NCBI RefSeq assembly: GCF_006345805.1
Contig: NC_043016.1
Location: 3,906,001 to 3,970,000, forward strand
Length of the DNA: 64,000 nt
Origin: Octopus sinensis
Taxonomy: Eukaryota
Reading direction: 5' to 3'
A program made the position numbers and the translations under genes. Under the pieces are notes generated by a model that ran no database searches, was not told the origin of the DNA, and was given only the letters and a program-made list of their open reading frames with translations. Below are positions 10,594 through 60,165 of this stretch, in pieces (position 1 is the stretch's first letter; each line of letters starts with the position of its first letter).

Positions 10594-11172
10594 GGCAGCG
10601 AGCTGGCAGAAACGCTAGCACGCCGGACGAAATGCTGAGCGGTATTTCGTCTGCCGTTACGTTCTGAGTTCAAATTCCTCCGTGGTAGACTTTGCTTTTC
10701 ATCCTTTCAGGGTCGATAAATAAAGTACCAGTTACGCACTGGGGTCGATATAATCGACTTAATCCGCTTGTCTGTCCTTGTTTGTCCTCCCTGCGTTTAG
10801 CCCCTTGTGGGTAGTAACGAAATAGGTATTTCGTTTGTCTTTACGTTCTGAGTTCAAATTCCGCTGAGGTGGACTTTGCCTTTCATCGTTTCGGGGTCGA
10901 TAAATTAAGTACCAGTTACGCACTGGGGTCGATATGATCGACTTAATCCGTTTGTCTGTCCTTGTTTGTCTTCCCTGTGTTGAGCCCCTTGTGGGTAGTA
11001 AAGAAATAGGTATTACGTCTGTCTGCACGTTCTGAGTTCAAATTCCGCTGAGGTGGACTTTGCCTTTCATCGTTTCGGGGTCGATAAATTAAGTACCAGT
11101 TGTGTACTGGCATCGATCTAATCGACTAGCCCCTTCACCAAAAATTTCGGGCCCTGTGCTTAGAGTAGAAAA
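10594..11172 (+). mobile_element. SINE with three tandem ~180-bp internal units (Meta-like core)
   Basis: Three repeats of gttctgagttcaaattcc...gactttgcctttcatc.tttcggggtcgataaattaagtaccag; single-unit copies at 38725-38938 and 63340-63480. Confidence 0.85.
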
Positions 11173-22193: not shown

Positions 22194-22297
22194 AGAGGAA
22201 TGACCACTAAAGTGGACACCCTATATGCTAAACATAGGCATTAAATTTGACGTCTATGTTTAGCATATAGGGTGTCCACTTTAGTGGTCATTCCTCT
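22194..22297. repeat. 44-bp perfect inverted repeat, 16-bp spacer (pLTR-like inversion)
   Basis: agaggaatgaccactaaagtggacaccctatatgctaaacatag / ctatgtttagcatatagggtgtccactttagtggtcattcctct. Confidence 0.9.
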
Positions 22298-51674: not shown

Positions 51675-51709
51675 ATTTAACGTTTCGAGCGGAGCTCTTC
51701 GTCAGAAAC
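51675..51709 (-). ncRNA. Minimal type I hammerhead ribozyme (Penelope-type)
   Basis: Minus: ttt CTGACGA a GAGC tcc GCTC GAAA CG TT aaa. Confidence 0.75.
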
Positions 51710-58641: not shown

Positions 58642-58696
<55 letters not shown>

Positions 58697-58854
58697 AGCT
58701 TAGAGAAGAAGAAGAAAACGAAACGAATCGAATCGACGCGAGGGCGCTCAGTCATACAATAGTGTAATAAATAAAATATATGCCACACATACAAACATAT
58801 ATGTACGTACCTACATCTACATGTATATATACATGCATATATAAATATATATAT

Positions 58855-59120
58855 AGTGGTGTACAGGACACCACAATAGACGTAGAACTCAACGAGAAAC
58901 GAAAAAGTAAAAATAGCATGGAACGGACCATTTTTTTAACAACGAAAAAACAGAGTACAAGACAACTACACAAGGAAAATCCCCTTCATCAGCTGTCCCT
59001 AGTTCAACTCCAGCATGTTTCGAAGGTGAGGACAGAACATGTCTCGTCGAACTAGTCCTTCCTGCGAAAGAATTAAATAAAATTCCTTTGCAGAGGGGTA
59101 AAAACAAGGAAAAAAAATGT
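58855..59120 (-). mobile_element. Non-autonomous repeat carrying the permuted hammerhead (best copy)
   Basis: Homologous flanks to 12970-13230 and 28685-28780; bounded by (TA)n. Confidence 0.65.
58981..59055 (-). ncRNA. Putative non-circularly permuted (pseudoknotted) hammerhead ribozyme
   Basis: Minus: CTAGTTCGAC gaga CATG T T CTGTCC tca CCTTC GAAA CATG ctgga GTTGAACTAG GGACAG CTGATGA AGGGG; complete core and all three stems in register. Confidence 0.7.
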
Positions 59121-60165
59121 GACAAATATATATATATATATATATATATACATACATACATCATATATATACATACAACATAATATTACATACATCCATA
59201 CATACATACATACATACATACATACATACACATACATATATATATATAATATATAATATATATATATATATAATATATATATATATTATTATACATATAT
59301 ATATATATATATCTATATATATATATATATATATATACGACGGGCTTCGTTCAGTTTTCGTCTGCCAAATAACAATATAACCTGAAAGTAGTAAAGGAAC
59401 AACCGTCCTGTGTCCCAGATAGTGGTTTTTCTCGTAGAGAAAAGATAGAACATCTGCGGGCTAGAGTAGGCAAGTGAACATTTTTATTCATATCAGATCT
59501 GTTGTAATGTTTAACAATATCCATGGTGTTTACATGAGTATCAGCAACACCAGTAACTGATATGGATGCCATATTCTACTACTGCCTTTACTCAAACTTA
59601 ACAAAAAATAATCAAAGTTGAAGTATTTCCTGGGTCTGAAGAGCTGCAGTAGTTTGGAAGAAACAAGTTTGCTGTGTTGATAATATGAACGTGCAAGGAA
59701 CGGCCGGTAGATATTTTGATGCTTTTGATCAGGAGAGACTATGAGTAGTTTGTGTACATAATCCAAAACAAGAAACGGTAGAATACATTTTTTACTTTTT
59801 ATATTTTCAATTTTTCTTTTTTCATAAGCAGTGATTATGTCTTTCAGCTGTTGAGAGAGGTTATCGTGTTGCCTTTGGAGAATGTTTTCGATGTGCCTCT
59901 ACATACAGTAAGTGCAAATTTCACGTGAGATGTCGAGTTCACATGAAAATGATGACGTCTTACTGCAGAACCTTGGGAAGGACTAAACAGAGATACCATC
60001 ACTTCAGAGTTATTACAAAGGGGAAAGCGAGGACATTTATCACTTAGGGAACACAAAAGTTCTGCAGATCAGAAACAGTGCGTCGGCTTCTATTGCGTTG
60101 CAAAAATTTTCTAACCCAAGAGATGAACGATGGATGTATTTCAACGGCGATCAGTTCAGCTAGAA

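What the first reader, a model, noticed from the sequence alone, without database searches (positions are those of the whole stretch)
58981..59055. Hammerhead ribozyme whose strands are in a non-circularly permuted order (pseudoknotted or trans-assembling architecture)
Seen, minus strand: CUAGUUCGAC gaga CAUG-U-U-CUGUCC uca CCUUC-GAAA-CAUG cugga GUUGAACUAG GGACAG-CUGAUGA-AGGGG. Every hammerhead element is in exact register. Strand A is III'-UH-I' (CAUGU, U, CUGUCC; predicted cut after 59036). Strand C is II'-GAAA-III. Strand B is I-CUGAUGA-II. Stem I is a perfect 6 bp, stem III 5 bp, and stem II 4 bp with two G-U pairs after an extra A, the same extra base seen in the canonical motif at 51675. 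Established: hammerhead types I, II and III are all circular permutations of the order A-B-C. Here the order is A-C-B, which is none of them. Inference: a 3-nt linker joins the distal ends of stems I and II, which lie side by side in the known fold. An extra 10-bp helix (59055-59046 with 59008-58999) extends stem III and abuts stem I with no linker. It could act as a strut in a pseudoknot, or force assembly between two transcripts or tandem copies. I do not know of a described natural class with this connectivity, and descriptors for types I-III would miss it.
Basis: partly seen in the sequence, partly recalled or inferred. Interest (0 to 1): 0.92.

Follow-up and report, generated by a model that had tools for sequence, protein, structure and literature searches.

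The report
Hammerhead ribozyme opened inside its core
An octopus jumping-gene repeat, present in thousands of copies, encodes a self-cutting hammerhead RNA wired in a way I could not find described, and the same wiring sits in the tails of Naiad retroelements that were reported to lack a normal hammerhead; cutting has not been tested.

Summary
The motif is real and not a type I-III hammerhead, but it is larger than reported and stem II was mis-assigned. It spans 59098-58981 (minus). Stem II pairs CCUUC with an upstream GAAGG (35 of 50 copies perfect; the proposed downstream GGGG, 0 of 50). The AGGGG after CUGAUGA closes an extra helix P6, and a hairpin P7 runs into G10.1. So the chain opens between A9 and G10.1, giving a five-way core junction with stems I and II as pseudoknots. 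Helices covary across about ten repeat families; 3,674 and 1,215 genomic matches keep matched stem II pairs, against 4 swapped. The S-G-C order itself is published (type SGC, Eckert 2023), but only with block C intact and not from a eukaryotic genome. The carrier is a ~780-nt non-coding Penelope-like repeat. The same fold lies behind Naiad reverse transcriptases here and in 7 of 80 Naiad-like metagenome loci, elements reported to lack canonical hammerheads. Best reading: a new, cis-cleaving hammerhead variant that processes retroelement RNA. No cleavage or expression evidence.

The parts
58981..59098 (-). Whole predicted ribozyme, 118 nt: P6a - P7 hairpin - II(5' strand) - P4a - III' - U^ - I' - linker - II' - GAAA - III - P4b - I - CUGAUGA - P6b
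59094..59098 (-). P6 5' strand CCCCU; pairs with AGGGG 58985-58981 directly after A9; the chain ends lie in this helix
   Evidence: 29 of 48 copies 5/5 WC against 2.3% shuffled; 91.4% of cells paired, C-G to A-U change in 9 of 44
59062..59093 (-). P7 hairpin (4 bp, A.C mismatch, 8 bp, 6-nt loop), starting directly after P6a and ending directly before G10.1
   Evidence: 22 of 48 copies 4/4 at the base against 2.5% shuffled; CUGC/GCAG, CCGC/GCGG, CUAC/GUAG, CCAU/AUGG; 3 of 4 pairs change on both sides
59057..59061 (-). Stem II 5' strand GAAGG (G10.1 = 59061)
   Evidence: genome counts 3,674 / 1,215 matched against 4 swapped
59046..59055 (-). P4 5' strand; P4 is the position-equivalent of the stem I-II interaction helix of type-SGC/CSG ribozymes
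   Evidence: own 6.4, cross-family 4.7, shuffled 4.4; comparison with SS_cons
59036..59041 (-). Stem III 5' strand CAUGU (U16.1 = 59037) and U17 = 59036; predicted cut between 59036 and 59035
   Evidence: triplets GUU, GUC, GUA, AUA in family consensus
59030..59035 (-). Stem I 5' strand CUGUCC, followed by linker UCA 59029-59027
59014..59026 (-). Stem II 3' strand CCUUC (C11.1 = 59022), G12-A13-A14 (59021-59019), stem III 3' strand ACAUG (59018-59014)
58999..59008 (-). P4 3' strand, abutting stem I
58986..58998 (-). Stem I 3' strand GGACAG and C3-U4-G5-A6-U7-G8-A9
58981..58985 (-).
58692..59126 (-). Host insertion: 5'-truncated copy (about 435 nt) of a ~780-nt non-coding repeat unit, between (TA)n tracts

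Best explanation
The RNA is a hammerhead ribozyme whose backbone is opened inside the catalytic core, between A9 and G10.1. Shown by covariation: a nested scaffold (P6 closing a junction that carries hairpin P7 and the long P4-III arm), plus stems I and II as pseudoknots between the apical loop of that arm and the two single strands of the junction. Inferred: the arm folds back at its internal loop so that P4 runs beside stems II/III; P6 and P7 stack on each other and bulge out at position 9/10.1, where type I Penelope hammerheads carry one extra base; the standard core then cuts in cis after U59036. In wiring it is a further circular permutation of the ring that gives types SGC and CSG, with two helices inserted at the opening. 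Inferred role: cutting multimeric or read-through transcripts of a non-autonomous Penelope-like repeat to unit length before reverse transcription, the role proposed for hammerheads in other Penelope-like elements. The same fold serves the autonomous Naiad family of this genome and some Naiads of other organisms. Confidence in the secondary structure alone is about 0.9; the figure given is for structure plus cis cleavage.
For: All core positions and a non-G at 17 are kept in ten sequence groups while stems change. Stem II upstream: (94.3% paired, 3 of 5 pairs change on both sides). P6 and P7: (95.3% of 1,048 cells paired; 182 both-side changes against 56.8 in shuffles; slid controls 41-45%). 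The 118-nt sequence folds into P6+P7+P4+III with pair probabilities 0.90-0.99, z -2.5. A sequence-free descriptor finds the fold once in the window, in 24 of 30 close copies, 12 of 30 Naiad-tail copies, 7 of 80 Naiad-like metagenome loci (all sense strand, six distinct sequences), 0 of 30 loci of a type I-bearing element and 0 times in 4.0 million shuffled bases; P6, mostly with a P7-like hairpin, recurs in these. Both P4-to-III links occur singly in ribozymes that cut during transcription (2 nt in type CSG, down to 0 nt in type SGC). Insertion pattern of Penelope-like elements: 30 of 30 copies end in (TA)n, 4 of 30 have an adjacent inverted partial copy, 5 of 30 exceed one unit.
Against: No cleavage data. 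A break with two helices at A9/G10.1 is outside what Eckert et al. saw in hammerhead alignments, so it might impair the A9.G12 pair. The families are related by descent, so counts are not independent events; alignment A1 used 60 sequences picked by eye (the window copy and 59 of 97 hits), and A3 was selected for intact stem II and left out 4 of 48 copies, three of which had poor P6. The downstream pairing also scores 93.3% paired (mostly G-U) with one both-side change, so an alternative conformer is not excluded. P4 length varies from 5 to 14 bp by a crude measure, which weakens the strut-length argument. No autonomous partner was linked to the window's family. Only 9 of 80 Naiad-like loci showed a complete non-circular hammerhead (7 core-opened, 2 CSG), though many contigs are short.
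Confidence: 0.65

Rival explanations
1. Same secondary structure, but the core assembles in trans or between tandem copies: the apical loop of one unit docks into the junction of another, so cutting needs a dimer or multimeric transcript.
For: Minimal hammerheads of metazoan Penelope-like elements cut only as dimers and weakly (PMC4209133). P4 abuts stems I and II with 0-2 nt. 24 of 51 copies carry GAA opposite AGUA in the arm, resembling a bulged-G motif (recalled) that would keep the arm fairly straight. Tandem units occur.
Against: Stem III is a full 4-6 bp helix, not the short palindrome typical of dimeric forms; 25 of 30 close copies are under one unit; type SGC and CSG ribozymes with the same short links cut during transcription, although I saw no concentration series there.
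Confidence: 0.15
2. A hammerhead-derived RNA domain that no longer cuts, or cuts only with a protein; it is kept as a recognition or folding signal for the element's reverse transcriptase.
For: The A9-G10.1 link is broken. Eight of nine predicted retrozyme elements tested by Li et al. 2026 did not cut. No RNA ends or joints were seen (uninformative).
Against: Catalytic letters, U16.1 and non-G 17 are kept across families and organisms whose helices differ completely.
Confidence: 0.12
3. One reading: an ordinary type-SGC hammerhead with stem II formed by the GGGG after an extra A; P6 and the upstream GAAGG pairing would be an inhibitory or alternative fold.
For: The downstream pairing is formally possible in most copies (93.3% of cells); published type SGC has an extra base at this place.
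Against: 0 of 50 copies reach 4 of 5 Watson-Crick pairs downstream, 0 of 30 Naiad-tail copies reach 5 of 6; predicted duplex energy 0.0 against -4.6 (upstream II) and -7.4 kcal/mol (P6); in the metagenome hits the bases after CUGANGA do not pair with II' at all.
Confidence: 0.06
4. A chance arrangement amplified by one repeat burst.
For: The 88-nt fragment alone folds no better than shuffles (z -0.01); all genomic copies share ancestry.
Against: Compensatory changes in all helices between families, 4 swapped against 3,674 matched stem II pairs, and the same fold in unrelated sequences.
Confidence: 0.02

Closest known systems
Type-SGC and type-CSG hammerhead ribozymes (Eckert, Friedrich, Weinberg, Weinberg 2023, PMC10085705)
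   Same: Same ring of blocks, a ~3-nt linker from stem I to stem II, and a helix joining the far ends of stems I and II (their 'I' helix = P4). Core with pseudoknots.
   Different: They keep I-CUGANGA-II as one strand and open the ring after the I helix (SGC) or after stem III (CSG); here both of those links are closed and the ring opens at A9/G10.1, with helices P6 and P7. They came from metatranscriptomes and metagenomes; the paper reports none from genomes of known organisms except one bacterial GCS candidate. Their descriptors need CUGAUGAG or CUGAUGAUG followed by stem II. No sequence likeness seen by eye.
Type I minimal hammerheads in pseudo-LTRs of Penelope-like elements (Cervera and de la Pena 2014, PMC4209133)
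   Same: Position near the element's 3' end, sense strand; conserved G10.1-C11.1; an insertion site between positions 9 and 10.1.
   Different: Type I order, one inserted base, short palindromic stem III, dimer-dependent. Here non-circular order, two helices at 9/10.1 and a full stem III. Type I forms exist in this genome in another element (9 of 30 loci) and at window 51705.
Naiad clade of Penelope-like elements (Craig et al. 2021, PMC8557442)
   Same: (TA)n target, 5' truncation, tandem and inverted copies; the tail of the octopus Naiad carries the same fold. The paper lists 10 'HHR_core' and 8 'HHR_half_core' entries that fit no descriptor.
   Different: The paper states that Naiads lack canonical hammerheads and gives no structure for these cores in the passages I read. 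The window's family has no ORF and no clear sequence link to the Naiad tail.
Non-LTR retrozymes (Li, Clavereau, Pollet 2026 preprint 10.64898/2026.07.22.740005; Cervera and de la Pena 2020 seen as search listing only)
   Same: Non-coding repeat unit with one hammerhead, tandem or single, thought to be moved by Penelope-like elements.
   Different: Defined by type I hammerheads; the preprint has 0 occurrences of 'octopus' or 'cephalopod'.

Membership tests
Hammerhead ribozyme | Core C3-U4-G5-A6-N7-G8-A9, G12-A13-A14, A15.1-U16.1, H17 not G | tested here: met
   Window sequence; ten family consensus rows; U-A pair 60 of 60 in A1. CUGANGA and GAAA were search terms; U16.1 and H17 were not.
Hammerhead ribozyme | Three helices I, II, III around the core with G10.1-C11.1 | tested here: met
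   G-C in 55 of 60 in the unselected-for-II alignment
Hammerhead ribozyme | A9 joined to G10.1 directly or through 1-2 nt | tested here: not met
   G10.1 lies 75 nt upstream of A9; P6 and P7 bridge the gap
Hammerhead ribozyme | Site-specific self-cleavage 3' of H17, lost in core mutants | not testable with these tools
   Only contigs were available; no ends or joints
Types I, II, III (CGS, GSC, SCG) | Circular order of the three intact blocks, no pseudoknot in the core | tested here: not met
   An all-orders parser returns S-G-C for the window copy; no Rfam hit
Type SGC (Eckert 2023) | S block, short linker, G block, then stem I and CUGANGA | tested here: met
Type SGC (Eckert 2023) | Helix joining the distal ends of stems I and II | tested here: met
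   P4 starts 0-2 nt after II and ends 0-2 nt before I in 15 of 15 cases; covariation weaker than for the core stems
Type SGC (Eckert 2023) | Block C intact: stem II strand follows CUGANGA | tested here: not met
Non-autonomous Penelope-like element | 5' truncation, partial tandems, adjacent inverted copy, microsatellite target, no ORF | tested here: met
   (30 copies); no retroelement ORF inside the unit
Non-autonomous Penelope-like element | 3' end shared with an autonomous element | tested here: inconclusive
   No blastn link to the Naiad tail; profile search weak, E 0.03-0.9 in 3 of 30 loci; neighbouring ORFs in L030 and L120 are separated by (TA)n
Naiad clade (for the ORF-linked copies of the fold) | N-terminal GIY-YIG, DKA motif, C-terminal reverse transcriptase | tested here: met
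   DKA in 4 of 30 G000 loci; homologues with GIY-YIG before RT; DKA in all 7 metagenome hits, N-terminal GIY-YIG motif in 4 of 7

The most novel reading that the evidence does not exclude
A seventh natural hammerhead wiring: the chain enters and leaves through a helix inserted between A9 and G10.1, giving an active five-way, double-pseudoknot core. Non-circular hammerheads (this form and type CSG) are the overlooked ribozymes of many Naiad retroelements and of some other retroelements in animals, so a topology known from anonymous metatranscriptome RNAs is in fact abundant in animal genomes.
Probability: 0.6. Interest if true: 0.9.

Novelty: new variant of a known kind. Interest (0 to 1): 0.84.

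Why it matters
The six block orders were taken as the full set because CUGANGA and stem II were assumed inseparable. A natural, covarying family that separates them shows that the best-studied ribozyme core may tolerate a backbone opening and two extra helices at 9/10.1, a new handle for structure work and ribozyme engineering. It gives non-circular hammerheads a genomic home in animals, with thousands of natural variants. It also makes an open point testable: Naiads were said to spread without canonical hammerheads, which was used to ask whether these ribozymes merely parasitise the elements; if Naiads carry rewired ones, self-cleavage looks like a kept part of the life cycle.

Tried and rejected
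Splice-acceptor idea: the CAG before G10.1 looked like an acceptor, but it changes to CGG, UAG or UGG together with its P7 partner, so it is a helix; no spliced joint. A helix between GGAAGG and the U-rich tail ('P5') was no better than cross-family controls (5.96 against 5.73) and was dropped. Type II parse of the window copy: no pairing S block between GAAA and CUGAUGA. Partner search: the element in L062-L091 has a type I hammerhead in 9 of 30 loci; elements in L142-L171 and L232-L261 showed no such fold joined to their tails. An antisense S-G-C parse inside a GIY-YIG ORF has overlapping strands and C10.1-G11.1 and is taken as chance. Sequencing runs: no RNA holder on record; three guessed-RNA runs and one other were laid as contigs, with no joints and no piece spanning the stretch; a depth drop across the cut site in X16 alone is not evidence. 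Viral contigs gave no Naiad relative. RNAalifold on A1 found only stem III, as expected with pseudoknots and register shifts. Literature: ten searches found no report of this wiring or of non-circular hammerheads in animal genomes. Weinberg et al. 2015 (pmid 26167874, cited in PMC13725137 for variants with additional helices or other permutations) and Hammann et al. 2012 were not held and could bear on novelty; bioRxiv supplements were not seen. Longer stretches around G000 Naiad copies were not obtained, so the N-terminal endonuclease was not seen in this genome's own copies.

Full report
Observation. A parser that allows all six block orders returns S-G-C for this copy, with stem I and stem III as described. 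The window lies in G000, 2.72 Gb; a 101-nt query gave 1,926 first-look candidates, and the 40 scored were 96-100% identical. A pattern holding only the G block followed by CUGANGAAG matches 8,608 times against 38 for the reversed pattern. I fetched 97 distinct hits from the first 100 listed; 51 of 97 have an S block that pairs with both partners, against 45 of 19,400 shuffles; the rest are, by eye, mostly 5'-truncated or decayed copies. The hits fall into about ten sequence groups (one of a single copy) with cleavage triplets GUU, GUC, GUA and AUA and different but pairing stems I and III. The host is an octopus by inference: the tail of a published octopus Naiad consensus matches 364 places, control 0. 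Sequencing runs under four organism labels hold the repeat.

The order is known, the wiring is not. Eckert et al. 2023 (PMC10085705; main text read, parts 1-6 of 8; supplement passages and part 8) described type SGC and CSG hammerheads, showed cleavage, and found none in genomes of known organisms apart from one bacterial GCS candidate. They treat I-CUGANGA-II as inseparable. Comparison with Naiad-like loci from other organisms then showed the stem II partner upstream of the S block. The same holds here: CCUUC pairs with GAAGG at 59061-59057, perfectly in 35 of 50 copies, while the downstream strand reaches 4 of 5 Watson-Crick pairs in 0 of 50. A second class has GAGCA with UGCUC. Genome-wide, GAAGG..CCUUC occurs 3,674 times, GAGCA..UGCUC 1,215 times and the swapped GAGCA..CCUUC 4 times (the other swap was not run). 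On the same 60 sequences this stem II is 94.3% paired with 3 of 5 pairs changing on both sides.

Two more helices. Co-folding the flanks showed that AGGGG after A9 pairs with CCCCU at 59098-59094 (P6) and that a hairpin (P7) runs from there to G10.1. P6 is perfect in 29 of 48 copies and the base of P7 in 22 of 48, against about 2.5% in shuffles; 2 of 50 copies were dropped for microsatellite in the leader. On 44 of these 48 (four left out, three of them poor in P6; stem II fixed by selection) 95.3% of cells pair, with 182 both-side changes against 56.8 in shuffles and 41-45% pairing in slid controls. These are cells, not independent events. The 118-nt RNA folds into P6+P7+P4+III (-37.1 kcal/mol, z -2.5), leaving the strands of I and II free to pair as pseudoknots; the shorter 88-nt piece had shown no signal. 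P4 is supported more weakly (own 6.4, cross-family 4.7, shuffled 4.4) and sits 0-2 nt from both stem I and stem II in 15 of 15 cases, with lengths of 5-14 bp. P4 is thus the helix that Eckert et al. call the I-II interaction. SGC, CSG and this form are openings of one ring; this one opens at A9/G10.1. That position takes a single extra base in Penelope type I hammerheads (PMC4209133, parts 1-2 of 4 read).

The carrier. The motif sits in a non-coding unit of about 750-830 nt (tandem spacing 778 in L030, 833 in L138). Of 30 close copies, 30 end in (TA)n, 16 start at a microsatellite, 4 have an adjacent inverted partial copy and 5 exceed one unit: the pattern described for Penelope-like elements. 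The window copy spans 59126-58692. No autonomous partner was tied to it: neighbouring ORFs are cut off by (TA)n, one element has a type I hammerhead in 9 of 30 loci, and likeness to the Naiad tail is weak.

Naiads. Craig et al. 2021 (PMC8557442; passages of main text and supplement) report no canonical hammerhead in Naiads but list 10 'HHR_core' and 8 'HHR_half_core' entries, the octopus family Naiad_Ovul among the latter. Read by eye from the printed passages, the end of Naiad_Obim and several other entries (those ending before the headers Naiad_Aacu, Naiad_Anas and Naiad-1_Movir, and two unnamed passages) show S-G-C order with an upstream stem II partner, and four passages, two of them Nbra families, show type CSG; these readings were not run through a tool. 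In G000, 6 of 30 loci with this family's reverse transcriptase show the motif 0.77-1.36 kb downstream within the 1.5-kb flank, and 4 of 30 show the DKA motif; 21 of 30 tail copies have an upstream stem II partner of at least 5 of 6 pairs, 0 of 30 a downstream one. Homologous proteins have GIY-YIG before the reverse transcriptase. Of 80 metagenome loci found with their alignment, 7 carry the core-opened fold, all on the sense strand, and 2 near-identical ones a type CSG fold; none of the 63 with at least 250 nt of 3' flank gave a type I-III parse or an antisense hit. Most loci showed nothing: only 13 of 63 had any CUGANGA in the flank held, so the fold is not shown for all Naiads.

Mechanism. 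Shown: sequence, covarying helices, repeat anatomy, link to Naiad ORFs for a sister fold. Inferred: fold-back of the P4-III arm, stacking of P6 on P7, cis cleavage after 59036, and unit-length processing of element RNA (a role proposed but not shown for other Penelope-like elements). RNA data were uninformative.

Novelty. Ten literature searches and passages of Perreault 2011, Forgia 2023, PMC13725137, PMC2777235 and parts 1-3 of 5 of the 2026 retrozyme preprint gave no description of this wiring or of non-circular hammerheads in animal genomes. Two relevant papers were not held, and the library lacks most subscription journals. Earlier notes of this scan mention a core-opened hammerhead in phages and rearranged hammerheads in Penelope-like elements of other genomes; they are unchecked leads, and I had adopted the Naiad link before reading them and found the upstream stem II afterwards. 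Verdict: a real, new variant of the hammerhead class, works like type SGC/CSG but is not a member of either; interest 0.84, held down by the lack of any cleavage test.

Noticed in passing
   Followed up: partly
window 13195-13097 (-): A second, decayed member of the same superfamily (GAGCA class) in the window.
   Followed up: partly
L041, L047, L032 around 1440-1545 of the oriented locus: The core-opened fold, with an added hairpin after stem II, lies right behind the ORF end of a non-LTR retrotransposon whose protein looks like a restriction-like-endonuclease clade (HERO-like; label recalled). The descriptor hits L041 and L047.
   Followed up: partly
L034, L055 near 1500: Another frequent family with GAAA 21 nt before CUGAUGA and an apparent S block; not recovered by the strict descriptor.
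   Followed up: no
L410, L411 (3' flank, about 900 nt after the ORF): A clean type-CSG hammerhead behind a Naiad ORF in metagenome contigs; only two CSG sequences were in the 2023 paper.
   Followed up: partly
P4-III arm of several families: GAA opposite AGUA in 24 of 51 copies, resembling a bulged-G (loop E) motif (recalled); absent from the window's family.
   Followed up: no
window 58812-58805 (-): A donor-like AG|GUACGU conserved in the tail of several families; no RNA support.
   Followed up: partly
L144 and related loci, antisense to the GIY-YIG ORF: S-G-C parse with overlapping strands in 13 of 30 loci; taken as chance.
   Followed up: yes
L075-L091: Penelope-like element with Asn-rich linker and a type I hammerhead with a very long stem II insert.
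   Followed up: no
L238, L239, L248, L253 and many listed places: A young Penelope-like family with 781-aa open frames and no CUGANGA hammerhead seen in the L239 tail; a candidate helper for non-coding (TA)n-targeted units.
   Followed up: partly
window 22198-22295: Perfect 42-bp inverted repeat (sub-threshold MIR7994 match).
   Followed up: no
window 10641-11127: 2.6 tandem copies of a 184-nt repeat unit.
   Followed up: no
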